Shown: positions 6,069-62,477 of the stretch, piece after piece
Position numbering within the stretch: the stretch's first letter is position 1
Layout of the letters: each line of letters begins with the position of its first letter
From: an uncultured bacterium
Lineage (GTDB): Bacteria > Patescibacteriota > Patescibacteriia > Patescibacteriales > UBA12465
Reading direction: 5' to 3'
Length of the DNA stretch: 64,000 nt
NCBI GenBank assembly: GCA_942492765.1
Contig: OW818634.1
Span: 281,159 to 345,158, forward strand
The notes under the pieces: generated by a model
What the model saw: only the letters and a program-made list of their open reading frames with translations
Database searches by the model: none
What the model was told of the DNA's origin: nothing
Translations under genes and position numbers: made by a program

Positions 6069-6130
6069 TATTTTTTATTACAAAAAGACAGGGTGTCCAG
6101 CTCTGTCTTTTTGTAATAAAAAATATTGAC
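6064..6130. terminator. 28-bp perfect inverted repeat (hairpin, 11-nt loop); probable terminator of the mur/ABC operon
   Basis: gtcaatattttttattacaaaaagacag (6064-6091) is the exact reverse complement of ctgtctttttgtaataaaaaatattgac (6103-6130). The right arm abuts the ABC transporter stop codon (6130-6132). The inner part has the A-tract/stem/T-tract form of a bidirectional terminator. Confidence 0.6.
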
Positions 6131-7920
6131 TAATCAACCTCTCCCATCGCTTGCAGCTTCAAGAGCTTGGCGTATAGGCCGCCCTGAGCTGAGGCTAGCT
6201 CCTTGTGGCTGCCCTGCTCAGCCACCTTTCCACCTTCGAGGACGACGATATTATCGGCCTGTTTGATTGTGCTTAAGCGATGGGCGATGATTATCATGGT
6301 CCGGTTCTGACTGATCTTCTTCATCGCATCTTGAATCAGCACTTCGCTCTGGCTATCAAGATTGGAAGTCGCTTCATCAAATATTAAGACGCGTGGATTG
6401 GCTAAGATAGCCCGAGCGATGCCGAGGCGCTGGCGCTGCCCGCCGGATAATTTTATGCCTCTCTCTCCGGTCATCGTGTCATAACCCTTGTCGAGCTTAT
6501 TGATAAACTCGTCAGCATTGGCAATTTTCGCCGCCGCGACTATCTCAGCGCGCGTCGCTTCGGGCCGCGCGTAGGCAATATTTTCCGCCACAGTCAGATC
6601 GAAAATTTCCACTTCTTGCGGCACGATCGCTAAGAATTTCCTAAAACTCTGCAAGTCATAATCGCGCAGATCCTTCCCGTCTAACAAAACGCGGCCTTTC
6701 TGAGGATCATAATGACGATAAGCTAAACGGGCGATAGTCGTCTTGCCGCCGCCGGAAGGGCCGACGAGCGCCGTGACGCTGCCTGGCTGAATCGTAAAAT
6801 TAAGGTCGCTGACGGCAGCGCGCTTATTAACATTATAATAGAAAGAGGCGTTATCAAAACTGATTTCGCCTTTGATATCTTGCGGCTTAAAGCCGTCCGG
6901 CGAGCTGACTATCTCGCTCTCTTCATTAAATAAGGCGATTAAGCGGCTGACGCCCTCACGGCCCTCTTCCATCCGGTCATAGAAACGTGACAAGCGATAC
7001 AAGGAAGCGTAAGCTTTCTCGCTGAGTGTGAAAACGAAGATCAGAGAGCCGACTGTCATGAGTTCTTTATAGACCAGATAAACGCCGAGAAAGAGTACAG
7101 CTGAACGACCGATATCGACGATGAAATTACGCCCTAAGCCGATCTTCATCATCCAGCCATATTGCTTGTTCTCATTATCGCGAATATTCTCTTTGACGCG
7201 CCCGAAGCCTTTCAATTCATTCTCTTCCTGCACGAAAGACTGAACGGCATTAATATTGATTATCGCCTGCCCCATCTTGCCCGACGCGATCTCATAATCG
7301 CGGAAGATGGCCTTCCTAATCGGGTACATCCGCTTATTCTGCCAATAGGTGATGAAGATGAACAGCGGTGCAAAAATCAAAAAAGACAGGCCGATGCGCC
7401 AATCGGACCAGAACAAGGCGACGAGAGTGAAGACGAGCTGGAAGACGGTCGGCAGCACTTCCCAGCAGATATTATTCAAAAATTCGGAAATCTTATCGAC
7501 GCCTTTCTCGATCTTGATTATCTTGGATCCGGTATTCTGGCGCTCATGATAACCGAGGCTGAGCGAGACTAATTTCTCTTGCGCCTTCATGCCCAAAAAA
7601 TATTCAACCTTCACCAGTAATTTCAAGATCCGGCGGTCGCTCAAGTATTGAATATAAGAACGGACCTCGTCGGTCACGAGATAGAGAGCGATCAATTTCA
7701 AGAGGAAAAAGAACTGGTCCTTAGAAAAATTATCCAGGCCATCAATGACTAATTTCAAGATATACGGCTTTCCCAAATCTAAGATAGCTGCCGCCAAGAT
7801 TATGACCGTGATAACTCCGAACAATTTCCTGAAAGACGCTAATAAGCGCCATAATTCCGGCCAGAAGCGTTTCCAGGATATGCTATCTTTTTCAGTTTTC
7901 TTTCCCTCCTCTTGATTCAT
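6130..7920 (-). CDS. ABC exporter, fused permease/ATPase (MsbA/ABCB type)
   Basis: 596 aa. It has six predicted N-terminal TM helices, Walker A GPSGGGKTT, ABC signature LSGGQRQR, and Walker B LIFDEATS. Confidence 0.9.
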   Translation of the reverse strand: MNQEEGKKTEKDSISWKRFWPELWRLLASFRKLFGVITVIILAAAILDLGKPYILKLVIDGLDNFSKDQFFFLLKLIALYLVTDEVRSYIQYLSDRRILKLLVKVEYFLGMKAQEKLVSLSLGYHERQNTGSKIIKIEKGVDKISEFLNNICWEVLPTVFQLVFTLVALFWSDWRIGLSFLIFAPLFIFITYWQNKRMYPIRKAIFRDYEIASGKMGQAIININAVQSFVQEENELKGFGRVKENIRDNENKQYGWMMKIGLGRNFIVDIGRSAVLFLGVYLVYKELMTVGSLIFVFTLSEKAYASLYRLSRFYDRMEEGREGVSRLIALFNEESEIVSSPDGFKPQDIKGEISFDNASFYYNVNKRAAVSDLNFTIQPGSVTALVGPSGGGKTTIARLAYRHYDPQKGRVLLDGKDLRDYDLQSFRKFLAIVPQEVEIFDLTVAENIAYARPEATRAEIVAAAKIANADEFINKLDKGYDTMTGERGIKLSGGQRQRLGIARAILANPRVLIFDEATSNLDSQSEVLIQDAMKKISQNRTMIIIAHRLSTIKQADNIVVLEGGKVAEQGSHKELASAQGGLYAKLLKLQAMGEVD

Positions 7921-11743: not shown

Positions 11744-12793
11744 TTAAAACTTCTGATCAAGCAGGAAGACCATCAGGCCGATAGCCGAGCCGATAGCCGC
11801 TATCACCCAGAAGCGCATGACCACCTTTGCCTCGGGCCAGCCCTTCGCCTGATAATGATGGTGGATCGGAGCGGATAAGAAGACTTTGCGGCCGCGCAAT
11901 TTCTTTGATAAGACCTGAATGATGACGGATAATGATTCTAATAGGAAAATCAACCCGATAAAAATCAAGAGTAGCGAATTATTGGTCAACATCGCGATGA
12001 TGCCGAGCGTGACGCCCAAGCTCATAGAGCCCGTATCGCCCATATAGAAACGGGCCGGAGGAATATTAAACCACAGGAAAGCGAGCAGCGCGCCAATGAT
12101 AACGCCGCAGAAAGTAGCCAACTCATAGCGGCCCAGCATGAAAGCGATGATACCGAAGACAGAAAAAGCGATAGCCAGGGTTCCTCCGGCCAAGCCGTCC
12201 AGACCGTCAGTCTCGTTGACCGAGAAAGAGGTGGCAACGATAATGAAGATGAATATCGGAATATACCAAGCGCCGATCTCGAAATTTCCCAAAAAAGGAA
12301 CGTGGAAGACGGTCCAGTCTAATTTGAAATAAAACCAGAGCGCGCCGGCGATAGCGATAAGCGTGTAGATGAGCAAGCGGTGGCGCAGCTTCAAGCCGCC
12401 GCCGCCGAGAACGCCCTTGCCGCGCACGTCCAGCCAATCGTCAAAAAGGCCGATCAGCGCGGAAATGATCAAGGCGCCCAAAGGCAATAAAGTTTCGGAG
12501 CGGGATAAGAAATTAAGATGTTGAAAAATATTTCCCGGGAACAGACTGCTTAAAGCAGAAAAGCCCAAGATGAAGACTAGGACAGTCCCCCAAATGAGAA
12601 CTCCGCCCATAGTCGGCGTTCCCTCCTTATGAGCATGAAGCTCGGTAAAGATCGGAGTCGCGCCGCCATTCCTGATTTTTTTTCCTAACTTATATTTATA
12701 GAGATAATGAGTCAGGATCGGAGCCACGATGATCGTAAAAATAAAAGCGAGGGCGGAAAAGAACAAGATCTTGACGACATAGAATTCCATCAT
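11744..12793 (-). CDS. mraY: Phospho-N-acetylmuramoyl-pentapeptide transferase
   Basis: 349 aa with DDWLDVRGKG, NETDGLDGLA and PIHHH motifs typical of MraY. Confidence 0.9.
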   Translation of the reverse strand: MMEFYVVKILFFSALAFIFTIIVAPILTHYLYKYKLGKKIRNGGATPIFTELHAHKEGTPTMGGVLIWGTVLVFILGFSALSSLFPGNIFQHLNFLSRSETLLPLGALIISALIGLFDDWLDVRGKGVLGGGGLKLRHRLLIYTLIAIAGALWFYFKLDWTVFHVPFLGNFEIGAWYIPIFIFIIVATSFSVNETDGLDGLAGGTLAIAFSVFGIIAFMLGRYELATFCGVIIGALLAFLWFNIPPARFYMGDTGSMSLGVTLGIIAMLTNNSLLLIFIGLIFLLESLSVIIQVLSKKLRGRKVFLSAPIHHHYQAKGWPEAKVVMRFWVIAAIGSAIGLMVFLLDQKF

Positions 12794-12800
12794 AAGGAGA

Positions 12801-13214
12801 TTATCTAAAATTAATCAAATAAATAAACATCAGAGCCAAGCTGATAAACATCAGGAAGAGCTCGGCGGCCGTTAATAAGATATTGGCGAACAACCGAAAA
12901 TACTGGCGGCGATGCAAGACTGCGGCCATGATCCAATTAAAAGCTAAGATGCCTAAGCCGTAAAGGGGATATAAGAATATGTGCCAAGGCGCGCCGACCA
13001 GATCGATGCCAAAATCTATATTATAATGCAGCACCAGCAGCTCTCCGCTCAGATGCTTATAGATGAAAACGGCCTGCAGCCAGGCGAGGATTTGGAACAA
13101 GCCAGCTAGCCCTAAATAGAAGCGGCTGGGCACAAAACGCCAAAGCGCCGCCAAGGCAACCCTTATTTCTTGACAAAAAGAGTAAAAACGGACGTAAAGA
13201 TTAGAATAAACCAT
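12801..13214 (-). CDS. Hypothetical ~4-TM membrane protein at the head of the mraY operon
   Basis: 137-aa ORF, hydrophobic and aromatic-rich, ending 8 nt upstream of the mraY start. I recognise no family. Confidence 0.45.
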   Translation of the reverse strand: MVYSNLYVRFYSFCQEIRVALAALWRFVPSRFYLGLAGLFQILAWLQAVFIYKHLSGELLVLHYNIDFGIDLVGAPWHIFLYPLYGLGILAFNWIMAAVLHRRQYFRLFANILLTAAELFLMFISLALMFIYLINFR

Positions 13215-13295
13215 AAAAAAATAAGAGAATAATCTATTTATTTTCAGTTTATCACATTTTAAAATAATACAAAACTATGTTATAATTAAGATATT

Positions 13296-14306
13296 ATGAG
13301 CCAAAAAATTATCACTAAAATATTCAATTACGCCGCTAGCGAAGGGGCCGACAACCTGGTCATCGCCAGGCGAGCCGACCAGCTTGTTCTAGACTACTAC
13401 TTCTCTGGACAAGACAAACAGAGCCTGATCTTGCCTAAGAAGCTAGAGAAGGAATTATTCTCCAGCCTGAGAAAAATATTAGCCGTCGCTCCCGGAGAAT
13501 TCATCGCTAAAAAATACTGCAAGCTTCCTCATAAATCCGGCTGCCTTAATTTCTATCTGACTATCATGCCGGAAGCGAACGGAGAAAAGATAATCATCAA
13601 TCTCATCACTAAGCCATTCACTCTCTGGCGCCTCAACAGGCTCGGATTGCAGAAAGCAGAGCTCCAGGAGATCAAGAAATCTCTTAATCTTAAGTCGGGG
13701 CTAGTGATTATCAGCTCTCCTGAGGGCGAAGGCAAGAGCGCCACCCTGAACTCCCTACTCCTCGAGCTGAATGACCCCTCTAAGAGCGTCTATTCCCTCC
13801 AAGGGCGAGAAGCTTACGAAGTCCCTGGCGTCGTAGCGCTCCCTCCGAGCGAAACTAATTGGGATAAGCTGCTGCGCTTAGATTCTGAGATAATCTTCAC
13901 TGATAGCCTAGACGAGTCTCGTTCGCTAGAACACGCGATTCGAGCGGCCGCTAGCGGCCGCCTAGTCTTCGGCACTATGACTGCGGCTGATTCCTTCGAA
14001 GCCTTGCGTAAAGTTCTGGCAGCTGAACCGCCCTTGAAATTAAAGCTGGATAACCTTAAGATGATCGTAAGCCAGCGCTTAGTCGGAATGAAGCGAAAGC
14101 CAGGAAAAACTAGCCGTGACCGGCGCAAGGAGATCGGCTTATTCGAAGTCCTCCGCATTACTCCAGCTATAAAGACGCTGCTGCTTAAGAAGCTCGAAAA
14201 AAAATCAGACGACCGCTATCAGGAATTGGAAAAAATAGCCTTAAAGGACGGCTTCCGTCCGCTCGCTCACGACCGCCTTAAGAAAAAGAAAGAAGGATTG
14301 ATATGA
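13296..14306 (+). CDS. GspE/PilB (type II secretion/type IV pilus ATPase) family protein with eroded catalytic motifs
   Basis: 336 aa. The N-terminal region resembles the GspE N2 domain (ADNLVIARRADQLVLDYYFSG...). The Walker A is partly kept (SPEGEGKSAT). The Asp box, Walker B and His box are replaced: QGREAY, IIFTDSLDES, and GRLVFGTMTAAD in place of the GHLVxSTLHTND type. Confidence 0.6.
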   Translation: MSQKIITKIFNYAASEGADNLVIARRADQLVLDYYFSGQDKQSLILPKKLEKELFSSLRKILAVAPGEFIAKKYCKLPHKSGCLNFYLTIMPEANGEKIIINLITKPFTLWRLNRLGLQKAELQEIKKSLNLKSGLVIISSPEGEGKSATLNSLLLELNDPSKSVYSLQGREAYEVPGVVALPPSETNWDKLLRLDSEIIFTDSLDESRSLEHAIRAAASGRLVFGTMTAADSFEALRKVLAAEPPLKLKLDNLKMIVSQRLVGMKRKPGKTSRDRRKEIGLFEVLRITPAIKTLLLKKLEKKSDDRYQELEKIALKDGFRPLAHDRLKKKKEGLI

Positions 14307-14965
14307 AGATAATCTGCGTCATCCCTGCCTGGAACGAAGGAAAGAATATCGCTAAAGTCATTACCGGCGCTAAGCCTTTTGTCGACGAGATCGTCGTCAT
14401 TGATGACGGCTCTCGCGATGATACTGCGGCGGCGGCTGAAGCGGCCGGCGCGACTGTTTTCCGCCATCCGATCAACCGCGGCCAAGGCGCGGCTCTCCAG
14501 ACCGGCAATGATTATGCTCTCGACCATGGCGCCGATATCATCGTCCATTTCGACGCTGACGACCAATTCTTGGCTACAGAAATAAAAGATATGACCGCGC
14601 CGATAATAGCAGGGCGCGCCGATATCGTCTTTGGTTCCCGCTTCTTAGGCAAGAAAGCTAATCTGCCGGCGGTCAAGAAATATCTGATCATGCCGCTCGC
14701 TCAGATATTCACTAGAGTGATATTGGGCATAAAGCTGAGCGATCCGCAAAACGGCTTCCGGGCGATGAGCCGCTTGGCCGCCGAAAAGATCAGAATAAAC
14801 AATCGGGAGATGGCCCATAACAGCGAAATCCAGATAAAGGCCTTCCAGGAAAAACTGCGAGTAGCCGAGGTTCCGATCACTGTCATCTACCACCGCGTCG
14901 GCCGCGGCTGGTCGGATGCTAAAAAGATCGTCCGCGACCTTCTGATCCACAGGATAATAAAATAA
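14303..14965 (+). CDS. Glycosyltransferase family 2 (polyprenol-phosphate glycosyltransferase-like)
   Basis: 220 aa with IPAWNEGKNIAKVI...VVIDDGSRDDT and a DADD motif. Its start overlaps the upstream stop (ATGA). Confidence 0.85.
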   Translation: MKIICVIPAWNEGKNIAKVITGAKPFVDEIVVIDDGSRDDTAAAAEAAGATVFRHPINRGQGAALQTGNDYALDHGADIIVHFDADDQFLATEIKDMTAPIIAGRADIVFGSRFLGKKANLPAVKKYLIMPLAQIFTRVILGIKLSDPQNGFRAMSRLAAEKIRINNREMAHNSEIQIKAFQEKLRVAEVPITVIYHRVGRGWSDAKKIVRDLLIHRIIK

Positions 14966-14991: not shown

Positions 14992-15312
14992 ATGTTGCAG
15001 CAGATAATCGCCATCGTCATCATCCTTTTCTTCATTTTCCGCCTAGTCGCGCAGAAAAAAAAGAACCAGATCAGCAATAGCGAATTCACGTTATGGCTCG
15101 TCTTCTGGCTGATTGCCGCCGCCGCTATCATCTTCATAAAGGCTATCGACAGCTTGGTCGCCTGGCTCGGCTTTTCCGGCAGCGGCATAAATTTCCTGAT
15201 CTATATCGCGGTTCTGGCCTTATTCTACCTCGTCTTCAGGCTCAGATTAGATCTGGCCAAGATGGACAGGAGTCTCACAGAAATCGTCCGCCAGATAACC
15301 TTAAAGAAATAA
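14992..15312 (+). CDS. Small membrane protein, DUF2304-like (GT2-associated)
   Basis: 106 aa and 3 TM helices. The pattern GSGINFLIYIAVLALFYLVFRLRLDLAKMDRSLTEIVRQ matches my recollection of the DUF2304 family, which typically follows a GT2 gene. Confidence 0.55.
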   Translation: MLQQIIAIVIILFFIFRLVAQKKKNQISNSEFTLWLVFWLIAAAAIIFIKAIDSLVAWLGFSGSGINFLIYIAVLALFYLVFRLRLDLAKMDRSLTEIVRQITLKK

Positions 15313-15314: not shown

Positions 15315-16448
15315 ATGAAAATCGCTTCTATCGTCTGCGCTTTCCCGCCTTATGCCGGCGGTATGGGCAACAGCGCCGATCGAATCAGCCAGATACTGAG
15401 AACCGAATATGAAGTCGTCGACTTCACTCCTTATAATACGAAACCGTGGCTGAAATATGGCCACGGTTCTGTTTTAGGCTCCCTGCTCTGGCGCTTGAGA
15501 TCATTCGATTATATTTACCTCCATTACCCGTATTTCGGCACGGCTGAGATCGTCTGGCTCTTCAAGATCTTCCACAAGAGAACGAAACTTGTGATCCATT
15601 ACCATATGGACGTAAGCGGCCTTAGCCCTTGGGCCAGGATATTAAGCCTTCCCAGCCGCCTGATTCGCGCCTCCCTGCTCCAACAAGCTGACCTTATCGT
15701 CACGGCCAGCCTAGACTATGTGAAGAACAGCGAAATAAAAGATTATTACGCGGCCCATCCCGAAAAATTTCGTGAGATCCCTTTCGCCGTCGACCTGCAG
15801 AGATTCCAGCCGAGCGGACTGAAGGCGCCGGCTGGTAATAGCCTCTTAGCCAAGGCTAAGGAGATCGTGAATTTCGTCAGCGCCCAATTCATAAAAAAGG
15901 ATCGTTTCGACCTGCTCTTTGTCGGCGCGCTCGATGCGGCCCATTATTTCAAAGGCGTGGACGTGCTCTTGCGCGCCGCCGCCGGGCTCGGCGATTGCCA
16001 TTTCGAATTGACGATTGCGGGCGAAGGCGATAAGCGCCAGGAATATGAGGCTTTAGCCGTGCGCCTCAATCTCGACAAGAAAATAAGGTTCGCCGGGAAA
16101 CTGAGCGAGGCCGACCTAGTTCGCGCTTATCAGAAAGCAGATCTCCTGATATTGCCCTCGATTAACGGCAACGAAGCCTTTGGCATCGTCTTGATAGAAG
16201 CTTTAGCTTGCGGCGTGCCAGTTATGGCCTCTGATCTTCCCGGCGTCCGCGGCGTCTTTAATGACGGCGAAGAAGGCTGGCTGATCAAGCCAGGAGACGT
16301 ATCAGACCTCGAAAAGAAATTGAGGCTATTTATGAGCGATAAATCTATATCCGAAAGAATGGCGGCAAAAGCGAGAAGCTTGGCGGAAGCCAAATATGGA
16401 GAAGAGATAGTAGCCGCTAAGCTAAAAGAAATATTCAAAGCGATATGA
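15315..16448 (+). CDS. Glycosyltransferase family 4
   Basis: The track ORF 15093..16448 has an N-terminal extension that overlaps the DUF2304 gene. The in-frame ATG at 15315 (MKIASIVCAFPPYAGGMGN) is the plausible start. The GT4 E-x7-E region is LPSINGNEAFGIVLIEALACGVPVMASD. Confidence 0.85.
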   Translation: MKIASIVCAFPPYAGGMGNSADRISQILRTEYEVVDFTPYNTKPWLKYGHGSVLGSLLWRLRSFDYIYLHYPYFGTAEIVWLFKIFHKRTKLVIHYHMDVSGLSPWARILSLPSRLIRASLLQQADLIVTASLDYVKNSEIKDYYAAHPEKFREIPFAVDLQRFQPSGLKAPAGNSLLAKAKEIVNFVSAQFIKKDRFDLLFVGALDAAHYFKGVDVLLRAAAGLGDCHFELTIAGEGDKRQEYEALAVRLNLDKKIRFAGKLSEADLVRAYQKADLLILPSINGNEAFGIVLIEALACGVPVMASDLPGVRGVFNDGEEGWLIKPGDVSDLEKKLRLFMSDKSISERMAAKARSLAEAKYGEEIVAAKLKEIFKAI

Positions 16449-17530
16449 AGATAGGCTTGATGCACAATCTATACGGGAAATACAGCCGCGGCGGCGCGGA
16501 AACAGCCGTGAAGATGATGGCTGAAGATTTGCGCCGATCCGGGCATGAAGTCTTCTTGATAACTACGCGCCCGGAGAATGATAAGCAGAACTCTGATCAG
16601 AAAGAAAATAAAACATTGAACGGAGAAAAAATATATCAGATAGATTCCGATTTCTATGATCTGGGCAAGCGTTCCCCGCTCTACCGCGCTCTCTGGCAGG
16701 TCAGAAATATCTTCTCGTTCCAGCAAGCGCGCCAGATAAAGGCTATACTGAAATCAGAAAAACCGGATGCAATCATCACTCACAACTTGATGGGCCTAGG
16801 CTTCATGGTTCCTCGCGTCTTGAAGAAGTTGGATATCCGCCACGAACATTTCCTCCATGATATCCAGCTCATCCACCCTTCGGGACTGATGATCTTCGGG
16901 CAAGAACAGAAAATCGACAGCCTGGCCGCTAAGATATACCAAGCGCTGACGCGGACGCTATTCGCTTCTCCGGCTAAAGTCATCTCTCCGTCCGACTGGC
17001 TCCTAGAGATCCATAAGCAGCGCGGCTTCTTCAAGGATTCGGAACAGGAGATCCGCCCATTCGTCTGGCCCGAGACAGAAGCGCCGCGGCCAGCCAAAAT
17101 CGGTTCGGCCAAGAATTTTATCTTCATCGGACAGATCGAGGAACAGAAAGGCATACTCTTCCTTATCAACGCTTTTAAGAAGATAAGCCGGCCGGAGCTA
17201 AGCTTATTCATCGCAGTCCGCAACGGCGGCAAGGATCTGGATAAGGCGCGAGCGGCCGCTAGCGGCGATGCGCGCATCCAGATTTCCGGATTGCTTTCCT
17301 ATGACGAGACTAAAGAGATAATGAACGCCAAAGATTACCTGATCATCCCCTCTTTATGCTATGAGAATTCTCCGACCGTGATCTACGGCGCCCACGCGGC
17401 CGGCCTGTCTGTCATCGCTTCCCGTCTCGGCGGCATTCCGGAATTGATGAAAAAAGGCGACGAACTTTTCACCCCCGGAGACGAGGGCGACCTGATAAAA
17501 AAAATAACGCTAGCGACGAAGACGAAATAG
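16445..17530 (+). CDS. Glycosyltransferase family 4
   Basis: 361 aa with MKIGLMHNLYGKYSRGGAETAV and a C-terminal IPSLCYENSPTVIYGAHAAGLSVIASRLGGIPE. It has an ATGA overlap with the upstream GT4. Confidence 0.8.
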   Translation: MKIGLMHNLYGKYSRGGAETAVKMMAEDLRRSGHEVFLITTRPENDKQNSDQKENKTLNGEKIYQIDSDFYDLGKRSPLYRALWQVRNIFSFQQARQIKAILKSEKPDAIITHNLMGLGFMVPRVLKKLDIRHEHFLHDIQLIHPSGLMIFGQEQKIDSLAAKIYQALTRTLFASPAKVISPSDWLLEIHKQRGFFKDSEQEIRPFVWPETEAPRPAKIGSAKNFIFIGQIEEQKGILFLINAFKKISRPELSLFIAVRNGGKDLDKARAAASGDARIQISGLLSYDETKEIMNAKDYLIIPSLCYENSPTVIYGAHAAGLSVIASRLGGIPELMKKGDELFTPGDEGDLIKKITLATKTK

Positions 17531-17560
17531 AAAAGGCCGGACTGATCCGGCCTTTTATTA
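17531..17560. terminator. Bidirectional intrinsic terminator
   Basis: aaaaggccgg (17531-17540) pairs with ccggcctttt (17547-17556) across a 6-nt loop. It is flanked by A/T tracts and lies between convergent genes. Confidence 0.7.
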
Positions 17561-18609: not shown

Positions 18610-20640
18610 TTAGTTACTGATCTTTATTATACCAATATTAACGCCGCCGTTCCAGTTTTCCTCCCAAGCGTAGAACGATTCCATTAATTCTCCGCGAGTG
18701 CTGAAGACGCGGACATGGGGTGCGGCTCCCGCCTGAGCGGCCGTAGCTATTTCAGGCAAGCCGTCGTTATTCAAGTCGCCGGCAGACAGGTTCACCCCGC
18801 CTTGCCAATTGCGGCTATAAGCTAAGAACTGGCGCACCAGTGCGCCGCGATTATCAAAAATCTTTATCTGCGGATCACGGCCTTTGCCCGGAGAAACGAT
18901 GATGTTCGCCTTATTATGATCTTTGCGGCCGTTGATATTCGCGACCGCTATCTTCACTCCGCCACGGAATTTCTTTTCATAAGCTAAAAAAGCTCCGATA
19001 ATCTTGCCGTCAGCATGGAAGATCTTAACCATCGGCTCGGAGCCGGCGCCATAAGCGGCGACGATTTCCTGGTCGCCGTTGCCATCAATATCGCCAGCCG
19101 CCAGATTCAGGCCGCCGCGCCAATAGCGGCTGTCGACCAAAAATTGCTTCTTCAATTGGCCGTTGAAATTGAATATTTTGATTTGACCGGTGCCGCGCGC
19201 GGCTTGGGCAACGGCTATCTCCATCTGCTCATCGCCGTCAATATCAATCAAAGCGACGCTCACCCCGCCGCGAAAATACTTGTCATAAGCTAATATCTGC
19301 TTGATCAACCGGCCGCTTTCACTATAAATCATAATCTTCGGTTCGCTGCTCGGCCCCGCGCCGACGATTATTTCTTCTAAGCCGTCGCTGTTGACGTCTC
19401 CGATGGCGATGCTTTCCCCGCCCTTGATATCTAGGGATAATTTATCGGCCAGATCGCCAGTGGCAGCCGTAAGCTTGGACTGCTTGGTCTTGACGGAGCT
19501 CTGCGGCAGAACGACTAGGCGTCCGACGCGGCTATATAATTTCTCTTTAGCCATCTCGACAGCCCGATTGACATTTAAGCGTCCGTTGCCCAGCTTGCCC
19601 TCATAGTCAGGATTTAAACGGCTGATATTATCAGTAGAAGCGAAAAGAATATTAACTATCTCGCGGCGGCTCAATTCCGGATTAGCCTGGGCGATTAAGG
19701 CTAGGGTCGCCGTGACTTGCGGCGCTGCCATGGAAGTTCCCGACCAATAGCCGTCATAGAGCTTATTCGGAAAATCAGCCACGCTGCCCGCAGTCACTGC
19801 GCTGAAGAAGCTGATGCCCGGAGCGACTAAGTCGACACAGCGCGATCCATAGCTGGAAAATTTAGCTTTCTGATCAAGCGCATCGGTCGCGGCTACGCCG
19901 ATGACCATATTCTCGCCGATGAGCTCGCCGTCATAACAAGCCGGATAGATAGGCGTCTTCTCGATATCATAACCGACGCCGTCCGCTTGCTCATTTCCGG
20001 CCGCGGCGACGATCATGATTCCGGCCTTATGCGCCCGGCGTATCGCTTCTTGCATGCCGTCGCTATAATTAAAAGAGACGAAGCTCAGATTTATTATATC
20101 CGCGCCATTAGCGATCGCGTAGTCAATCGCGCGGATGACATTGCTCAATTTTCCCTCTCCTTTATCATTTAGAACTTTTAGAGCCATGATCTGCGCCTGC
20201 CAGGTGATGCCGGCGACACCCTCGCTATTATTGCCGCGCGCGGCGATTATGCCGGCGACCATCGTGCCGTGAGAGACCCCAGCCTCAGTCCAGCCGGCCG
20301 TAAATTTCGGCGATGGGTCTGGGGCGTTATTAACGAAGTCCCAGCCATTCACGTCATCAATGAAGCCATTCCCGTCGTCATCAATATTATTTCCCGGAAT
20401 TTCCCGAAGGTTATTCCAGATATTATTTTTCAAATCGGGATGATTGATCTGTATGCCTGAATCGATTACCGCGATTACCATATCCGGACTGCCGGTAATC
20501 TTATCCCAGGCGCTGTCGGCTTTTATCTTAGATAAATACCATTGATTGCTATAAAAAAAATCGTTCGGCGTAATATTAGCCAAAACAGGCTCTGCCAGGA
20601 ACAGCGAGAGAATAAAAAAAGATGTTATCAGTTTTCTCAT
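18610..20640 (-). CDS. Secreted subtilisin-like (S8) serine peptidase with C-terminal FG-GAP/VCBS-like repeats
   Basis: The catalytic triad contexts are AVIDSGI (Asp), HGTMVAGIIAA (His) and GTSMAAPQV (Ser). The signal peptide is MRKLITSFFILSLFLAEPVLA, and the ATG at 20640 is preferred over the track start 20661. The C-terminal 263 aa form about five 50-55 aa repeats. Confidence 0.85.
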   Translation of the reverse strand: MRKLITSFFILSLFLAEPVLANITPNDFFYSNQWYLSKIKADSAWDKITGSPDMVIAVIDSGIQINHPDLKNNIWNNLREIPGNNIDDDGNGFIDDVNGWDFVNNAPDPSPKFTAGWTEAGVSHGTMVAGIIAARGNNSEGVAGITWQAQIMALKVLNDKGEGKLSNVIRAIDYAIANGADIINLSFVSFNYSDGMQEAIRRAHKAGIMIVAAAGNEQADGVGYDIEKTPIYPACYDGELIGENMVIGVAATDALDQKAKFSSYGSRCVDLVAPGISFFSAVTAGSVADFPNKLYDGYWSGTSMAAPQVTATLALIAQANPELSRREIVNILFASTDNISRLNPDYEGKLGNGRLNVNRAVEMAKEKLYSRVGRLVVLPQSSVKTKQSKLTAATGDLADKLSLDIKGGESIAIGDVNSDGLEEIIVGAGPSSEPKIMIYSESGRLIKQILAYDKYFRGGVSVALIDIDGDEQMEIAVAQAARGTGQIKIFNFNGQLKKQFLVDSRYWRGGLNLAAGDIDGNGDQEIVAAYGAGSEPMVKIFHADGKIIGAFLAYEKKFRGGVKIAVANINGRKDHNKANIIVSPGKGRDPQIKIFDNRGALVRQFLAYSRNWQGGVNLSAGDLNNDGLPEIATAAQAGAAPHVRVFSTRGELMESFYAWEENWNGGVNIGIIKISN
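18613..19401 (-). repeat. Coding tandem repeats (about 5 units of ~150-165 nt) encoding FG-GAP-like blades
   Basis: The peptide pattern recurs five times: GD[VIL][DN]xDGxxEI...P.[IV][KR][IV]F...G.L...F.AY....RGG[VL]. Examples are GDVNSDGLEEI, DIDGDEQMEI, GDIDGNGDQEI and GDLNNDGLPEI. Confidence 0.75.
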
Positions 20641-20675
20641 ATAACACCTTAATACTAACATATCTTAATTATTAT

Positions 20676-21900: not shown

Positions 21901-22914
21901 TTATTTAGTGGCGAGGATGCTGCGTTTATAAGAATCCAAATTATCTAAAGCGATACCCGTGCCCTTGGCGACGCAAAGCATGGCGTCGTCAGCGACATAA
22001 GCGGAAACACCGGTAGTCCGAGCGATTAATTGATCGATATTGCGGAGCAAGGAGCTGCCACCGGTAAGCACTATGCCCTTATCCATGATATCGGCCGATA
22101 ATTCCGGCGGAGTCTTCTGCAGCACTTTCTTAGCGGCAGCGATTATCGCCTCTAGCTCGTTCTGGATAGCTTCAGTCACATCATCGCTCGAGACAGTCAG
22201 ACTGCGCGGCAGGCCGGTCACGATATCGCGTCCGCGTATCTCCAGATAAAGCTTATCCTCCATATATAAGGCCGAGCCGATATTGATCTTTATTTCTTCA
22301 GCTGTACGCTCGCCGATAGCCAGGTTATATTTCTTGCGAATATATTCCAGGATAGCAGCATCGAACTTATTGCCGCCGACGCGCACAGAAGTCGAAGCGA
22401 CGATTCCGCCCAAAGAAATGACGGCCATTTCCGCGGTTCCGCCGCCGATATCGATAACCATGTGCCCAGTAGCTGAGCCGATGGGTATGTCAGCGCCGAT
22501 AGCCGCCGCCACCGGTTCCTTGATGATATAGGCCGCTTTAGCGCCAGCCGCGATAGTCGCTTCAATGACCGCGCGGCGCTCAGTAGACGAAATGCCCGCC
22601 GGGACGGCGACCATGACTTCCGGACGGAATAAGCGGATGCCCCCTAAGGTCTTATTGATGAAATAGCGTATCATCGCTTCGGTCGCCCGATAATCAGCGA
22701 TGACTCCGTCCTTCAAAGGACGCACGGCCATAATAGTATCCGGGGTGCGGCCGATCATATCCTTAGCCTCGTTGCCGACAGCCAGGATCTTCTTGTCATG
22801 GATAGAGACTGCCACCACGCTCGGCTCATTAATAACAATGCCGCGCTTAGGCAGATGGATTAGAGTATAGGTTGTACCAAGATCGATTCCGATCCTTTTA
22901 ATAAACATACGCAA
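21901..22914 (-). CDS. mreB: Actin-like rod-shape protein MreB (paralog 1, not next to mreCD)
   Basis: 337 aa with IGIDLGTTYTL, VIDIGGGTAEMAVISLGG and VLTGGSSLLRNIDQLI actin-fold motifs. Confidence 0.9.
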   Translation of the reverse strand: MRMFIKRIGIDLGTTYTLIHLPKRGIVINEPSVVAVSIHDKKILAVGNEAKDMIGRTPDTIMAVRPLKDGVIADYRATEAMIRYFINKTLGGIRLFRPEVMVAVPAGISSTERRAVIEATIAAGAKAAYIIKEPVAAAIGADIPIGSATGHMVIDIGGGTAEMAVISLGGIVASTSVRVGGNKFDAAILEYIRKKYNLAIGERTAEEIKINIGSALYMEDKLYLEIRGRDIVTGLPRSLTVSSDDVTEAIQNELEAIIAAAKKVLQKTPPELSADIMDKGIVLTGGSSLLRNIDQLIARTTGVSAYVADDAMLCVAKGTGIALDNLDSYKRSILATK

Positions 22915-26830: not shown

Positions 26831-27634
26831 TTAAGGTATAAGGACAGACACTATAGTCAGATTATCAAGGTCGACGAGAGGCTCGATGATCGCCTCCTGC
26901 CAAACCTCGTTGCTTTCATTGAAAACCTGGGTGACGCGGCCGATAACCAGACCGCGGGCGATATGTTCGCCCAAACCCGAGGTGATGACGATGTCTCCCG
27001 GCGCTATCTTCTCTAGCTGCGGAATATAATTCATCCTGATAGTCAGGCCGAGATCGCCATCGGTTATGCCCTGCGTCTTATCGGAATTCTGGATAGCGGC
27101 GGCTAGCTGGCAATTAGGATTAGTCGTCAAGCATATCTTAGCCGTCGCGTCTTTCGTTTCTAAGACTTTACCGACGATCAAGCCGTCTTCGCTGACTACC
27201 GCTAAGCCAGCGACTAATCCGTCCTTGGCACCGCGATTGATAACTAAGCCCAGGCTATCTTCAGCGGCCGCTTCTTTGGCGATGACGCTCGCGACTACAG
27301 TCCGTGAATTACTATTGCTAGCGAATTTCAAGGCCTCGCGCAGCTTGCGATTCTCTTCCTCTATCTCTAAGCTGCGGGAATTAGCCACAGTCAGGACTAA
27401 CACTTCTTTAGCTAAACGATCAGCTCGCGCGGCTGGATCTTCCGGATTATTATTGGCGTCATAAGCCGTCTTGATATTCGTGCCGGCATTATAAAAACGG
27501 CTGGCGATAGGCTTGACCAGATAAACCAGAGAATTCTCCAACGGCCGCAAGAATCCCGATATATGCAAAAAAAACAGCGCGGCGGCTATTATCAGGCAAG
27601 GGACGACCGGATTGTTTTTCTTGATTCTAACCAT
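26831..27634 (-). CDS. mreC: Rod shape-determining protein MreC
   Basis: 267 aa with an N-terminal TM, a coiled-coil segment (LEIEEENRKLREAL) and a beta-rich C-terminal domain (GDIVITSGLGEHIARGLVIGRV). It follows mreB. Confidence 0.8.
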   Translation of the reverse strand: MVRIKKNNPVVPCLIIAAALFFLHISGFLRPLENSLVYLVKPIASRFYNAGTNIKTAYDANNNPEDPAARADRLAKEVLVLTVANSRSLEIEEENRKLREALKFASNSNSRTVVASVIAKEAAAEDSLGLVINRGAKDGLVAGLAVVSEDGLIVGKVLETKDATAKICLTTNPNCQLAAAIQNSDKTQGITDGDLGLTIRMNYIPQLEKIAPGDIVITSGLGEHIARGLVIGRVTQVFNESNEVWQEAIIEPLVDLDNLTIVSVLIP

Positions 27635-27635: not shown

Positions 27636-28676
27636 TTAATCAGTATTCGAAGGCAGAACGACTTTCTCTAATAATTCCTTATCAGTTAATAAGATGCCGG
27701 TGCCGCGCACGACGCAAGTCAATGGATCATCGGAAATCTTGACAGGAATCTTGGTCGCCAGAGAGATAGCCTTGTCCAAGCCGCGCAGCAGGGCGCCGCC
27801 GCCGGAAAGATACAGGCCGCGCTCATAAATGTCAGAAACTAATTCCGGAGGAGTCGTCTCTAAGATAGTCTTGATGTTATCGATGATCTTGACGACGGTG
27901 CGATTGATCGCTTCCCTGATCTGCTTGTCGCTGACCATGAGAGCCTTAGGCAAGCCGGTAACGAGATCGCGGCCGCGCACTTCTATCTCGGTCGGAGCCT
28001 CCAGGGGGACAGCCGAACCGATAGCGATCTTGATCGCTTCCGCCAGCTGCTCGCCGATGAGAATATTGAATTCTTCGCGGATATACTCGATGATGTTGTT
28101 ATCAAATTCGTTTCCGGCCGCTTTCAGAGATTTCCAGGTGACGACGCCGCCGAGCGAGATGACGGCGATTTCCGTCGTGCCGCCGCCGATATCTACGACC
28201 ATGGTCGCGGTCGCTTCAGTTACGGGCAAGCGGGCGCCGATAGCAGCGGCCATCGCTTCCTCGATCAGATAGACCTTGCGGGCGCCGGCAGACTTGGCAG
28301 CATCCTCGACCGCCTTCTTCTCTACCTCGGTCAGGTCGAGCGGAATGCCGATGACGACGCGCGGGCGGGAGATGAGAGTAAAATTCTCAGTATGGACTTT
28401 ATTAATAAAATATTTGAGCATCTTCTCAGTCACTTCAAAATCAGAAATGATCCCTTCGACGAGCGGCTTAATCGCTTCGATATGGCCCGGAGTCTTGCCG
28501 ACCATCTTCTTGGCAGCCTCGCCGACCTCCAGGATTTCATTCGTACGCTTATTGATAGCGACAACGCTAGGCTCGTTGATTACTAGCCCCTTATCAACAA
28601 CATAAACCAGGGTATTCTTGGTTCCCAAGTCGATTCCTAAGTCATGGCTGAATTTTCCGAGCAGATTATTGAACAT
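27636..28676 (-). CDS. mreB: Actin-like rod-shape protein MreB (paralog 2, in mreBCD)
   Basis: 346 aa with LGIDLGTKNTLVYV, VVDIGGGTTEIAVISLGG and YLSGGGALLRGLDKAI. Confidence 0.9.
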   Translation of the reverse strand: MFNNLLGKFSHDLGIDLGTKNTLVYVVDKGLVINEPSVVAINKRTNEILEVGEAAKKMVGKTPGHIEAIKPLVEGIISDFEVTEKMLKYFINKVHTENFTLISRPRVVIGIPLDLTEVEKKAVEDAAKSAGARKVYLIEEAMAAAIGARLPVTEATATMVVDIGGGTTEIAVISLGGVVTWKSLKAAGNEFDNNIIEYIREEFNILIGEQLAEAIKIAIGSAVPLEAPTEIEVRGRDLVTGLPKALMVSDKQIREAINRTVVKIIDNIKTILETTPPELVSDIYERGLYLSGGGALLRGLDKAISLATKIPVKISDDPLTCVVRGTGILLTDKELLEKVVLPSNTD

Positions 28677-54510: not shown

Positions 54511-54527
54511 AAGAATTAATGGAATTT

Positions 54528-54560
54528 AAAAAAGACTTACCACAAAATAAGTCTTTTTAA
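54528..54560. terminator. Bidirectional intrinsic terminator
   Basis: aaaagactta (54530-54539) pairs with taagtctttt (54548-54557) across an 8-nt loop, with flanking A and T tracts, between convergent genes. Confidence 0.65.
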
Positions 54561-54570
54561 TTATTATATT

Positions 54571-57619: not shown

Positions 57620-57646
57620 ATTATTAATATTAAGCGCCGGATATAT

Positions 57647-59265: not shown

Positions 59266-59272
59266 ATAATGA

Positions 59273-61546: not shown

Positions 61547-61547
61547 A

Positions 61548-62474: not shown

Positions 62475-62477
62475 AAA

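What the first reader, a model, noticed from the sequence alone, without database searches (positions are those of the whole stretch)
13258..14306. Orphan GspE/PilB-like protein with eroded ATPase motifs, translationally coupled to a glycosyltransferase operon
The 336-aa protein aligns by eye to the N2 and ATPase domains of secretion and pilus ATPases. However, the Asp box (EDPVEY type) reads QGREAY. The Walker B (GEIRD type) reads TDSLDE. The His box (GHLVxSTLHTN) reads GRLVFGTMTAA. The first Gly of Walker A is Ser (SPEGEGKSAT). That pattern predicts a non-catalytic or heavily altered ATPase. No pilus or secretion partners are adjacent. Instead its stop overlaps (ATGA) the start of a GT2-DUF2304-GT4-GT4 operon. 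A TATAAT at 13281-13286 lies only 9 nt from the ATG, so the mRNA may be nearly leaderless. This is a possible repurposed scaffold or regulator for glycan assembly.
Basis: partly seen in the sequence, partly recalled or inferred. Interest (0 to 1): 0.55.

Follow-up and report, generated by a model that had tools for sequence, protein, structure and literature searches.

The report
Catalytically dead PilB-like protein heading glycan operon
A protein descended from the motor ATPase of type IV pili and type II secretion has lost its catalytic residues, yet one class of ultrasmall (CPR) bacteria conserves it as the first gene of a cell-envelope sugar operon next to the cell-wall genes, so it probably has a new, non-motor job there.

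Summary
ORF 13296-14306 (+) encodes a 336-aa protein with the N2 and ATPase-domain fold of PilB/GspE (Pfam T2SSE E=1e-15; AlphaFold pLDDT 85; Foldseek to PilF/PilB/EpsE E~1e-27). Its Asp box, Walker B Glu, both His-box histidines and the N2 arginine fingers are replaced. The N1 domain and the zinc module are missing.

It is not a pseudogene. I recovered 72 non-redundant full-length orthologs, with dN/dS of 0.04-0.21. All sit in the same slot: mraY-TM137 on one side, divergently transcribed, and GT2-DUF2304-GT4-GT4 on the other. None of the 71 aligned orthologs has a full catalytic set. However, the P-loop Gly, a Lys or Arg, an acidic residue after the Walker B strand, and an Arg in place of the first His are kept. 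The site looks remodelled rather than destroyed.

The ATGA overlap or a very short gap to GT2, and a TGnTATAAT box 6 or 9 nt before the ATG, are conserved across the lineage (class ABY1, "Falkowbacteria"). GT2+DUF2304 match the GacI/GacJ (PpgS/Rv3632) type of polyprenyl-phosphate-sugar synthase.

Best reading: a repurposed, non-motor pseudo-ATPase acting in envelope-glycan or cell-wall lipid-carrier assembly. The function itself is inferred, not shown. It is a new variant of a known kind and of moderate interest.

The parts
13248..13286 (+). Conserved promoter core: TTTATCACATTTT (13248-13260), AAAATAAT (13261-13268), and an extended -10 made of TG (13278-13279) plus TATAAT (13281-13286). It ends 9 nt before the ATG, which predicts a leaderless or near-leaderless mRNA. 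The same 81-bp intergenic region also serves the divergent TM137-mraY operon.
   Evidence: Alignment of 20 orthologous intergenic regions. Promoter scan gives TTTAAA-17-TATAAT with TG, 10 of 12 matches. The spacing is 9 nt in 36 and 6 nt in 15 of 72 orthologs.
13296..14306 (+). PilB/GspE-like pseudo-ATPase, 336 aa. The N2 domain is about aa 1-112 and the ATPase-fold CTD about aa 113-336. There is no N1 domain and no tetracysteine zinc module.
   Evidence: AlphaFold2 model with pLDDT 84.7; Foldseek to PilF, PilB and EpsE at E~1e-27.
13716..13739 (+). Walker A remnant SPEGEGKS (aa 141-148). The first Gly is Ser. Gly146, Lys147 and Ser148 are kept.
   Evidence: Across orthologs: Gly 71/71; Lys 54, Arg 14, Leu 3; Ser/Thr 63/71.
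13800..13820 (+). Asp-box position, reading QGREAYE (aa 169-175) instead of EDPVEYE.
   Evidence: This segment is not conserved in the family.
13890..13916 (+). Walker B position, reading IIFTDSLDE (aa 199-207) instead of hhhhGEIRD. Asp203 follows the strand, and the catalytic Glu is replaced by Ser204.
   Evidence: Across orthologs the Gly position reads D49/E17 and the Glu position reads D34, gap 16, E8, N5, S3, G2.
13956..13988 (+). His-box position, reading GRLVFGTMTAA (aa 221-231). Both histidines are lost and Arg222 replaces the first.
   Evidence: Across orthologs the first His reads R68/K3, and no ortholog has His at the second position.
14085..14132 (+). Basic linker GMKRKPGKTSRDRRKE (aa 264-279). 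It occupies the place of the tetracysteine zinc module found in PilB/GspE and in 15 of 71 deeper orthologs.
   Evidence: Linkers average 18 aa with a net charge of +5.4.
14303..14965 (+). GT2 glycosyltransferase of the PpgS/GacI type (polyprenyl-phosphate-sugar synthase). Its start overlaps the pseudo-ATPase stop (ATGA).
   Evidence: Pfam PF00535 at 9e-25. Best NCBIfam model is PpgS: 158 bits, below the 370-bit cutoff.
14992..15312 (+). DUF2304 small membrane protein. This is the GacJ/Rv3632 family, which activates the GT2.
   Evidence: PF10066 at 64.9 bits. The paper 10.1101/180810 assigns GacJ to DUF2304 and shows that it stimulates GacI.
15315..16448 (+). GT4 glycosyltransferase (GT4a). Its evolutionary rate covaries with that of the pseudo-ATPase.
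16445..17530 (+). GT4 glycosyltransferase (GT4b), the last gene of the operon.
17531..17556 (.). Terminator-like hairpin AAAAGGCCGG-ATCAGT-CCGGCCTTTT, lying between the operon and the convergent epimerase gene. The scan called it on the minus strand; a bidirectional role is inferred from its A-run and T-run flanks.
12801..13214 (-). TM137, a 137-aa lineage-restricted membrane protein and the first gene of the divergent TM137-mraY-ftsW-murG-murC operon. It always co-occurs with the pseudo-ATPase and is a candidate partner.
   Evidence: No Pfam or NCBIfam hit. The pseudo-ATPase is present in 75 of 75 loci fetched with TM137 as the probe that had enough flank to judge. AlphaFold2 pLDDT 86.8, with no PDB fold match. 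Rate covariation 0.47.
11744..12793 (-). mraY, the lipid I synthase. It uses the same polyprenyl-phosphate carrier as the GT2 and sits in the divergent operon.
   Evidence: Pfam hits on orthologous loci; 73-95% identity across loci.

Best explanation
The gene encodes a pseudo-ATPase derived from a PilB/GspE-type extension motor.

**What is kept and what is lost**
- It keeps the N2 plus RecA-like CTD fold.
- It keeps a P-loop-shaped pocket made of an invariant Gly, a Lys or Arg, an acidic residue after the Walker B strand, and a basic residue where the first His-box histidine used to be.
- It has lost the elements that turn ATP hydrolysis into domain motion: the catalytic Glu, the Asp box, both His-box histidines and the N2 arginine fingers.
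- It has also lost the N1 domain that docks canonical motors to GspL/PilM. In this subclade a short, strongly basic linker replaces the zinc module.

**How it is expressed**
- It is the first gene of a five-gene operon that also encodes a GacI/PpgS-like GT2, its GacJ-like DUF2304 activator and two GT4 enzymes.
- The operon is read from an extended -10 promoter, probably without a leader.
- That promoter lies back to back with the promoter region of TM137-mraY-ftsW-murG-murC.

**Proposed role (inferred)**
I propose that it no longer works as a motor. Instead it acts as a peripheral-membrane scaffold or nucleotide-sensing switch. It would organise or regulate envelope-glycan synthesis that competes with peptidoglycan synthesis for polyprenyl phosphate. 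It probably acts through the small membrane protein TM137 and/or GT4a.

**Shown:** homology and fold, motif loss across the family, purifying selection, operon structure, promoter conservation, strict co-occurrence with TM137.

**Inferred:** loss of motor activity, retained nucleotide binding, membrane association, the partners, and the regulatory or scaffolding role.
For: **Fold and family:**

**Motif census in 71 orthologs:** none has a complete catalytic set. The first His reads R68/K3 and the second is never His. The Arg fingers are lost. GK[ST] survives in 48 of 71. An acidic residue follows the Walker B strand in 66 of 71.

**Purifying selection:** dN/dS is 0.04-0.21, similar to the adjacent GT4 genes at 0.08-0.22.

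**Native composition.**

**Same slot in every locus examined:**
- 17 close loci.
- 6 distant orthologs at 23-33% identity.
- 75 of 75 informative loci fetched with TM137 as the probe.

**Operon structure:** the junction to GT2 is -4 nt in 29 and <=40 nt in 64 of 66 orthologs. A terminator-like hairpin follows GT4b.

**Promoter:** the TGnTATAAT box is conserved, 6 or 9 nt before the start codon in 51 of 72 orthologs.

**Identity of the GT2 and DUF2304 pair:** they match the GacI/GacJ and PpgS/Rv3632 pairs.

**Rate covariation:** the pseudo-ATPase covaries with GT4a (0.49), TM137 (0.47) and FtsW (0.39). The positive control GT2-DUF2304 gives 0.40.

**Precedent:** in Myxococcus xanthus, a PilB variant deficient in ATP hydrolysis and pilus assembly still supports exopolysaccharide production (PMC5544727).
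Against: - There is no biochemical or interaction evidence of any kind.
- All orthologs come from one lineage in which the whole block of about 20 kb is syntenic (MraY 73-95% and MreB 91-99% identical). Conserved position could partly be inheritance rather than selection for linkage.
- The protein evolves faster than any neighbour (mean Kimura distance 1.09, against 0.23 for MraY). That also fits a weakly constrained accessory role.
- Rate covariation with GT2 and DUF2304, the genes it overlaps, is about zero. The covariation test also ignores phylogenetic non-independence.
- Lys->Arg or Leu and Ser/Thr->Asn, Gly, Asp or Arg changes in about a third of orthologs argue that even nucleotide binding is not universally required.
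- I could not check the rest of the 0.9-Mb genome for a canonical pilus machine.
Confidence: 0.5

Rival explanations
1. It is still an active NTPase with a rewired catalytic site. A classical hhhhD Walker B would act together with Arg222 as a phosphate sensor. The enzyme would power a membrane step for the operon, for example extraction, flipping or hand-over of polyprenyl-phosphate-linked sugars, by analogy with PilB pulling pilins out of the membrane.
For: The P-loop Gly is invariant, Lys or Arg is kept in 68 of 71, Ser/Thr in 63 of 71, an acidic residue follows the Walker B strand in 66 of 71, and a basic residue replaces the first His in 71 of 71. Some deep orthologs keep GxxxxGKT and a Glu, for example P0205. 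The gene is tightly coupled to a polyprenyl-phosphate-sugar synthase.
Against: None of the 71 orthologs has a full catalytic set. In the window protein the catalytic Glu is Ser. The Asp box and the N2 Arg fingers needed for hydrolysis-driven N2/CTD closure are absent across the family. Walker A Lys is Arg or Leu in 17 of 71, and Ser/Thr is replaced in 8 of 71. Such drift at catalytic positions is not expected if catalysis were the selected function.
Confidence: 0.18
2. It is an accessory or regulatory paralog of the lineage's genuine type IV pilus or competence machine, which is encoded elsewhere. It might form mixed rings with PilB or cap PilC. Its position next to the glycan operon would then be a historical accident frozen by synteny.
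For: Class ABY1 genomes are reported to encode PilB, PilC, PilM, PilT and ComEC (PMC11809585). The protein keeps the N2+CTD architecture that forms hexamers in PilB. The whole block is syntenic in a single lineage, so position alone is weak evidence.
Against: There are no pilus genes within the 64-kb window or within +/-10 kb of any of about 100 loci. The stop/start overlap or a gap of a few nt to GT2 and the shared promoter are maintained over deep divergence. The N1 domain that links motors to PilM/GspL is absent. The evolutionary rate covaries with envelope genes.
Confidence: 0.12
3. It is a functional protein with a role unrelated to either neighbouring operon, for example a nucleotide sensor acting elsewhere. 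It would be co-expressed with the envelope genes only because of genome compaction in a 0.9-Mb genome.
For: CPR genomes are very compact, and operons there can mix functions. Covariation with GT2 and DUF2304 is absent.
Against: Co-occurrence with TM137 is perfect (75 of 75). The operon junction is conserved. Rate covariation with TM137, GT4a and FtsW is as strong as the positive control.
Confidence: 0.15
4. It is a decaying pseudogene or a spurious ORF.
For: It is the fastest-evolving gene of the block and has lost its catalytic motifs.
Against: There are intact ORFs of conserved length in 72 non-redundant orthologs. dN/dS is 0.04-0.21. There are 15 invariant and more than 30 nearly invariant columns. 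The AlphaFold model is confident. The promoter is conserved.
Confidence: 0.02

Closest known systems
PilB / GspE (PulE, EpsE, PilF) extension ATPases of type IV pili and type II secretion (Pfam PF00437; PDB 5IT5, 5TSH, 1P9R)
   Same: It has the N2 domain plus RecA-like CTD fold, with a Foldseek E-value of about 1e-27. Structural motifs are shared: GEK-hhh in N2, the P-loop position, DP/DS-D-hhhh, G-x-L-V, QRL and G-h-F-E. Deeper orthologs still carry the PilB/GspE-type tetracysteine motif.
   Different: There is no N1 domain. The catalytic Glu, the Asp box, both His-box histidines and the N2 Arg fingers are lost. This subclade has no zinc module. Scores are 45-75 bits against equivalog cutoffs of 300-675. 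There are no PilC/GspF, PilM/GspL or pilin genes nearby. The gene sits in an envelope-glycan operon instead.
ComGA, the N1-less competence pseudopilus ATPase of Firmicutes
   Same: It is a short (about 330-360 aa) N2+CTD-only architecture. The NCBIfam ComGA model hits at E=7e-12.
   Different: The score is 45 bits against a cutoff of 300. From general knowledge, ComGA keeps its catalytic motifs and lies in the comG pilin operon. Neither holds here.
Hydrolysis-independent signalling by Myxococcus xanthus PilB in exopolysaccharide regulation (PMC5544727)
   Same: A PilB-fold protein that cannot hydrolyse ATP still controls polysaccharide production. This shows that the fold can act as a conformational signal rather than as a motor.
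   Different: There the protein is the genuine pilus motor, with c-di-GMP-binding motifs, and it acts through the Dif chemosensory pathway. Here the protein is a dedicated, permanently degenerate paralog encoded inside the glycan operon.
GacI/GacJ (Streptococcus pyogenes) and PpgS/Rv3632 (Mycobacterium tuberculosis) polyprenyl-phosphate-sugar synthase modules
   Same: The two genes immediately downstream are a GT2 whose best model is PpgS and a DUF2304 protein (the GacJ family), adjacent as in those systems. Their rates covary, as expected for physical partners.
   Different: The paper read here on the characterised GacI/GacJ module (10.1101/180810) describes no PilB-like component. The GT2 scores below the PpgS equivalog cutoff (158 against 370 bits), so the sugar specificity is unknown.

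Membership tests
PilB/GspE secretion-ATPase superfamily (fold level, Pfam T2SSE PF00437) | N2 domain plus RecA-like ATPase domain, detectable by profile and by structure | tested here: met
   PF00437 at 57.8 bits against a 24.9 cutoff, covering aa 4-264. AlphaFold2 pLDDT 84.7. Foldseek top 22 hits are PilF, PilB, EpsE and GspE at E=1e-27 to 1e-23.
Functional PilB/GspE extension ATPase | Walker A G-x4-GK[ST] | tested here: inconclusive
   It reads SPEGEGKS. GKS is kept and the first Gly is Ser. Across the family the first Gly reads S49/A16/G5, and GK[ST] is kept in 48 of 71.
Functional PilB/GspE extension ATPase | Atypical Walker B hhhhGE with a catalytic Glu | tested here: not met
   It reads IIFTDS, so the Glu is Ser. 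Across the family the Glu position reads D34, gap 16, E8, N5, S3, G2.
Functional PilB/GspE extension ATPase | Asp box (E-D-P-h-E-Y/F-x) with acidic residues | tested here: not met
   It reads QGREAYE. The segment is variable across the family.
Functional PilB/GspE extension ATPase | His box with two histidines (G-H-L-V-x-S/T-T-h-H-T-N) | tested here: not met
   It reads GRLVFGTMTAA. None of 71 orthologs has His at either position; the first is R68/K3.
Functional PilB/GspE extension ATPase | N2-domain arginine fingers (R-L-P-Q-D-G-R and the R of D-L-R-V-S) | tested here: not met
   They read KKYCKLP and NFYLT. Across the family, Arg at the final position of RLPQDGR is Y63 and R only 3; the RVS Arg is Y38, R15. 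That these are the Arg fingers rests on my knowledge of the PilB structures, not on a test here.
Functional PilB/GspE extension ATPase | C-terminal tetracysteine zinc-binding module | tested here: not met
   There is no CxxC pair in the window protein; a 16-aa basic linker takes its place. The module is present in 15 of 71 deeper orthologs.
Functional PilB/GspE extension ATPase | N1 (GSPII/MshEN-type) N-terminal domain, and gene neighbourhood with PilC/GspF, PilM/GspL and pilins | tested here: not met
   The protein starts at the N2 domain; residue 4 aligns to residue 111-183 of the GspE and PilB models. There are no such genes in 64 kb or in about 100 related loci.
Functional PilB/GspE extension ATPase | Reaches the curated equivalog score (NCBIfam GspE, PilB, TfpB, ComGA, PilT) | tested here: not met
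   Scores are 45-75 bits against cutoffs of 300-850.
Functional PilB/GspE extension ATPase | Hexamer formation and ATP hydrolysis | not testable with these tools
   This needs biochemistry or multimer modelling.
Pseudoenzyme (conserved but catalytically dead homolog) | Catalytic residues are lost across the family while the gene stays under purifying selection | tested here: met
   None of 71 orthologs has a full catalytic set. dN/dS is 0.04-0.21 in six genome pairs. There are 72 intact orthologs.
GacI/GacJ-type polyprenyl-phosphate-sugar synthase module (applies to the downstream genes) | A GT2 of the PpgS/GacI/DPM1-like class immediately followed by a DUF2304 membrane protein | tested here: met
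   PF00535 at 87.9 bits and PF10066 at 64.9 bits. The best NCBIfam model is PpgS at E=3e-46, below its equivalog cutoff. GacJ is assigned to DUF2304 in 10.1101/180810.
GacI/GacJ-type polyprenyl-phosphate-sugar synthase module (applies to the downstream genes) | A GT-C glycosyltransferase that uses the lipid-linked sugar outside the membrane (the GacL equivalent) | not tested
   No GT-C family hit appears among the annotated window genes. The unannotated 522-aa ORF 54571-56139 was not analysed further.

The most novel reading that the evidence does not exclude
A ring-forming protein descended from the pilus motor has become a static or nucleotide-gated cytoplasmic platform specific to class ABY1 CPR bacteria. 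It would dock on the small membrane protein TM137. It would physically couple the peptidoglycan lipid-carrier enzymes (MraY, FtsW, MurG) with a second polyprenyl-phosphate-dependent glycan pathway (GacI/GacJ-like GT2-DUF2304 plus GT4s). It would thereby partition the scarce lipid carrier between the two pathways. This would be a new kind of envelope-synthesis organiser, and the first pseudo-ATPase of the PilB/GspE family with a role outside filament or secretion machines.
Probability: 0.15. Interest if true: 0.75.

Novelty: new variant of a known kind. Interest (0 to 1): 0.55.

Why it matters
PilB/GspE-family proteins are treated as motor ATPases of pili, secretion systems and competence machines, and databases name this protein accordingly ("ATPase, T2SS/T4P/T4SS family", "PilB", "TadA"). 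That annotation would wrongly credit these genomes with an extra pilus or secretion motor.

The analysis shows a lineage-wide branch of the family that has lost its catalytic residues but is still under purifying selection, wired into a cell-envelope glycan operon beside the cell-wall synthesis cluster. This gives a concrete case of a motor fold recruited to a non-motor role.

CPR bacteria have minimal genomes and poorly understood envelopes. A conserved, lineage-specific component sitting between the lipid I/II genes and a polyprenyl-phosphate-sugar synthase is therefore a testable entry point into how they build and regulate their surface.

The conserved leaderless promoter architecture is also a usable marker for transcription and translation signals in this uncultivated class.

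Tried and rejected
1. **Exact-sequence look-up of the window protein's own contig.** Not on record, so the rest of the 895,742-bp genome could not be read.
2. **First genome-collection scan with the 37-sequence alignment.** It failed for lack of a conserved peptide stretch. A 12-sequence alignment then gave only 13 loci.
3. **Test for a canonical PilB on the same contigs.** Cluster names were uninformative. The last homology search used P0192, which turned out to be a Woykebacteria-type PilB. None of its 120 listed hits shares a contig length with the contigs that carry this family. The result is inconclusive. Only the literature statement for a related ABY1 genus is available.
4. **TM137 identity.** There is no Pfam or NCBIfam hit. 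All 50 homologs are "hypothetical" or unnamed. The AlphaFold model is confident, but no PDB fold match is better than E=1.8. This was a dead end.
5. **Literature.** No paper was found that describes a degenerate PilB-like protein in CPR or a "pseudo-ATPase" PilB. The Saccharibacteria pilus paper describes only canonical PilB and PilT with intact Walker boxes.
6. **Pseudogene hypothesis.** Rejected.
7. **Foreign origin.** Rejected. GC and GC3 match the neighbours.
8. **Reading synteny as proof of functional linkage.** Rejected after finding that MreB and MraY are 91-99% and 73-95% identical across all loci, which means a single lineage.
9. **Semi-degenerate 397-aa relative P0189.** It lies on a 2.7-kb contig without the conserved context. 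The contig is too short to interpret.
Full report
**1. The observation**

The ORF at 13296-14306 (+) encodes 336 aa. Its TGA overlaps the ATG of the next gene, as ATGA at 14303-14306.

Pfam assigns aa 4-264 to T2SSE (PF00437; E=1e-15; 57.8 bits against a cutoff of 24.9). The NCBIfam equivalog models for GspE, PilB, TfpB, PilT and ComGA all hit, but at 45-75 bits against cutoffs of 300-850.

A sequence search of the PDB ranks Thermus PilF first, followed by EpsE/GspE, then PilB and PilT.

| Motif | Canonical | Window protein |
|---|---|---|
| Walker A | GPTGSGKS | SPEGEGKS |
| Asp box | EDPVEYE | QGREAYE |
| Walker B | IIMVGEIRD | IIFTDSLDE |
| His box | GHLVIATLHTN | GRLVFGTMTAA |

The same alignment shows that the N2-domain segment RLPQDGR reads KKYCKLP.

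An AlphaFold2 model built on 37 homologs is confident (pLDDT 84.7). Foldseek places it with PilF, PilB and EpsE at E~1e-27. The protein begins at the N2 domain, so it has no N1 domain. It also has no CxxC pairs, so it has no zinc module.

**2. It is a conserved family, not a decaying gene**

- A search of 5.8 billion proteins found 149 relatives. The 120 listed are mostly 330-345 aa long and range from 100% down to 37% identity. They are labelled Patescibacteria or Falkowbacteria where a name exists.
- A profile search of 1.84 billion cluster representatives shows a core of about 45 clusters (at 50% identity) of full-length proteins. Beyond these come 290-aa C-terminally truncated forms. Next come 355-390-aa N1-less forms that keep the tetracysteine motif but are also degenerate. 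Only then come canonical PilB/GspE proteins of about 560 aa.
- Nei-Gojobori dN/dS for six genome pairs is 0.04-0.21. For comparison, mraY gives 0.01-0.06 and the neighbouring GT4b gives 0.09-0.22.
- GC and GC3 match the neighbouring genes.

**3. State of the active site across the family**

I aligned 71 non-redundant orthologs, taken from all fetched loci, to a canonical PilB-type sequence. None has the full catalytic set.

| Position | State in 71 orthologs |
|---|---|
| First His-box His | Arg 68, Lys 3 |
| Second His-box His | Never His |
| N2 Arg fingers | Mostly Tyr |
| Asp box | Variable |
| Catalytic Glu | D34, gap 16, E8, N5, S3, G2 |
| Walker A | GK[ST] in 48; Lys->Arg in 14; Lys->Leu in 3; Ser/Thr replaced in 8 |
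| P-loop Gly146 | Invariant |
| Residue directly after the Walker B strand | Acidic in 66 |
| First His-box position | Basic in all 71 |

I read this as a remodelled phosphate- or nucleotide-binding pocket whose hydrolysis and power-stroke elements are gone. It is not a wholly dead site.

The zinc module is present in 15 of 71 orthologs. Because canonical PilB/GspE proteins have it, its loss in the window's subclade is derived. In that subclade it is replaced by a linker of about 18 aa with a net charge of about +5.

**4. Genomic context**

Every locus examined has the same arrangement:

murC-murG-ftsW-mraY-TM137 (one strand) <> T2SSE-like-GT2-DUF2304-GT4-GT4 (other strand), followed by a convergent epimerase, an S8/FG-GAP peptidase, a GT4 and mreB.

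This holds for three sets of loci:
- Close relatives.
- Six distant orthologs at 23-33% identity, including zinc-type and truncated forms.
- 75 of 75 loci with enough flanking sequence among the 80 fetched from metagenomes with TM137 as the probe.

One caveat is important. Across all these loci MreB is 91-99% identical and MraY 73-95% identical. They therefore belong to one lineage, with the whole block syntenic. The pseudo-ATPase is the fastest-evolving gene in it. Position alone is thus weak evidence for a functional link.

The stronger evidence is operon structure:
- In 66 orthologs the GT2 start lies -4 nt from the stop (ATGA) in 29, +1 to +5 nt in 19, and <=40 nt in 64.
- A GC-rich hairpin flanked by A and T runs follows GT4b at 17531-17556.

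The window contains no second T2SSE gene, no prepilin motif and no PilC-, PilM- or GspF-type hit.

**5. Promoter**

The 81-bp divergent intergenic region has a core that is conserved even where the protein is only 23-45% identical:

TTTATCACATTTT-AAAATAAT-N9-TGnTATAAT

The -10 hexamer ends 9 nt (36 orthologs) or 6 nt (15 orthologs) before the start codon, out of 72. No Shine-Dalgarno sequence precedes the ATG. The promoter scan independently ranks TTTAAA-17-TATAAT with TG as the best site.

The reverse complement of TTTATCACA is TGTGATAAA. It may be the extended -10 of the divergent TM137-mraY promoter; this is an inference.

**6. The neighbouring genes**

- The GT2's best curated model is PpgS, the polyprenyl-phospho-GalNAc synthase (E=3e-46, below the equivalog cutoff).
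- DUF2304 is the family of GacJ. GacJ forms a complex with the GT2 GacI, lowers its apparent Km for undecaprenyl phosphate from 18.7 to 1.1 uM, and raises its Vmax. The mycobacterial pair PpgS/Rv3632 behaves likewise (10.1101/180810).

The operon therefore most likely makes a polyprenyl-monophosphate sugar, plus further GT4-dependent glycoconjugates. It draws on the same lipid carrier that MraY uses in the divergent operon.

**7. Candidate partners (exploratory)**

I used 44 non-redundant loci and seven genes. I correlated residual pairwise distances after removing the shared divergence signal.

| Pair | Correlation |
|---|---|
| GT2-DUF2304 (positive control) | 0.40 |
| T2SSE-like-GT4a | 0.49 |
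| T2SSE-like-TM137 | 0.47 |
| T2SSE-like-FtsW | 0.39 |
| T2SSE-like-GT2 | about 0 |
| T2SSE-like-DUF2304 | about 0 |

The permutation test ignores phylogeny, so this is a lead and not a result.

TM137 is a 137-aa membrane protein restricted to this lineage. It has a conserved LVLHYNVDFGID hairpin, no family assignment and no structural relative.

**8. Lineage, and whether canonical pilus genes exist**

Record titles name Candidatus Falkowbacteria for several loci. A paper on class ABY1 recovered its genomes from reads classified as Falkowbacteria. It reports PilB, PilC, PilM, PilT and ComEC in that class (PMC11809585). The protein studied here is therefore probably an extra paralog, not the lineage's only PilB.

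I could not verify this for the window's own genome.

**9. Interpretation**

The best-supported reading is a PilB/GspE-derived pseudo-ATPase that has been recruited as the leading gene of an envelope-glycan operon beside the cell-wall synthesis cluster. It would act as a scaffold or nucleotide-sensing regulator rather than as a motor.

There is a conceptual precedent. In Myxococcus xanthus, a PilB variant deficient in ATP hydrolysis and pilus assembly still supports exopolysaccharide production (PMC5544727).

The rivals are, in order: a rewired but still active NTPase; an accessory subunit of a pilus machine encoded elsewhere; a function unrelated to either neighbouring operon; and a pseudogene, which is rejected.

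**10. Novelty and score**

I found no description of such a protein. Databases label it as an ordinary secretion or pilus ATPase.

It is a new variant of a known kind: the fold and ancestry are familiar, but the family-wide catalytic loss and the envelope-operon context are not. Interest is moderate at 0.55. The descriptive findings are solid, but the function is inferred and the family is confined to one uncultivated class.

Noticed in passing
window 13248-13286 (and the aligned intergenic regions of L001-L030): A non-coding core of about 40 bp, TTTATCACATTTTAAAATAAT...TGnTATAAT, is conserved across genomes whose flanking proteins are only 23-50% identical. It contains the perfect palindrome ATTTTAAAAT. 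On the minus strand it reads TGTGATAAA, which may be the extended -10 of the divergent TM137-mraY (dcw) promoter or an operator shared by both operons.
   Followed up: partly
window 12801-13214 (-): TM137 is a 137-aa membrane protein of nearly fixed length, restricted to this lineage, with an invariant H-Y-N..G hairpin motif and a C-terminal YLINF[RK]. It is the first gene of the mraY-ftsW-murG-murC operon. It has no Pfam or NCBIfam family and no PDB fold match. It always sits next to the pseudo-ATPase.
   Followed up: partly
proteins P0155 and P0157 (about 980-1050 aa; Candidatus Paceibacterota where named): These are tandem double-PilB proteins. Two complete N2+ATPase units, each with canonical Walker A, Asp box, Walker B, His box and tetracysteine motifs, are fused in one polypeptide of about 1000 aa.
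   Followed up: no
window 21901-22914 (-) and 27636-28676 (-), with mreC at 26831-27634 (-): Two MreB paralogs lie within 7 kb, and mreC lies directly beside the second. The first MreB is 91-99% identical across all related loci, far more conserved than any other gene in the block.
   Followed up: no
window 53185-63812: This is a second glycan cluster. It holds a Bac_transf initiating transferase, an unannotated 522-aa ORF (54571-56139), a flavin amine-oxidase-like protein, GtrA, a GT4, a GT2, two methyltransferases, a GT2 with weak TPR-repeat matches, and a Wzx-type flippase.
   Followed up: no
window 18610-20661 (-): A subtilisin-like S8 peptidase of 683 aa is conserved in the block directly after the convergent epimerase. 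In the related loci it shows weak or faint FG-GAP repeat matches.
   Followed up: no
L005/L006 4800-5294 and L026/L027 9824-10249: In some relatives a small ORF of 141-164 aa on the opposite strand is inserted between GT2 and DUF2304. It splits the GacI/GacJ-like pair, while the junction between the pseudo-ATPase and GT2 stays intact.
   Followed up: no
L032 635-1828 (protein P0189, 397 aa): This PilB-like protein is semi-degenerate. It keeps RLPQDGR, IDEIRD and the tetracysteine motif, but it has AASAGNGKT and NGKLV (no His). It lies on a 2.7-kb groundwater contig without the mraY/GT2 context. It may be an intermediate form or an independent case of motif loss.
   Followed up: partly
L008, L010 (record titles) and P0117: Public labels look wrong. 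Two MAG contigs titled "uncultured Gammaproteobacteria bacterium", and a protein labelled Candidatus Saccharimonadales, carry this block. MreB is 93-99% identical and MraY 78-95% identical to the window, so they belong to the same ABY1/Falkowbacteria-type lineage.
   Followed up: no
window 6130-7920 (-): An MsbA-like ABC exporter (399 bits to the MsbA model, below its cutoff) sits inside the cell-wall cluster next to murC in all related loci. It is a candidate lipid-linked-glycan or lipid II flippase.
   Followed up: no
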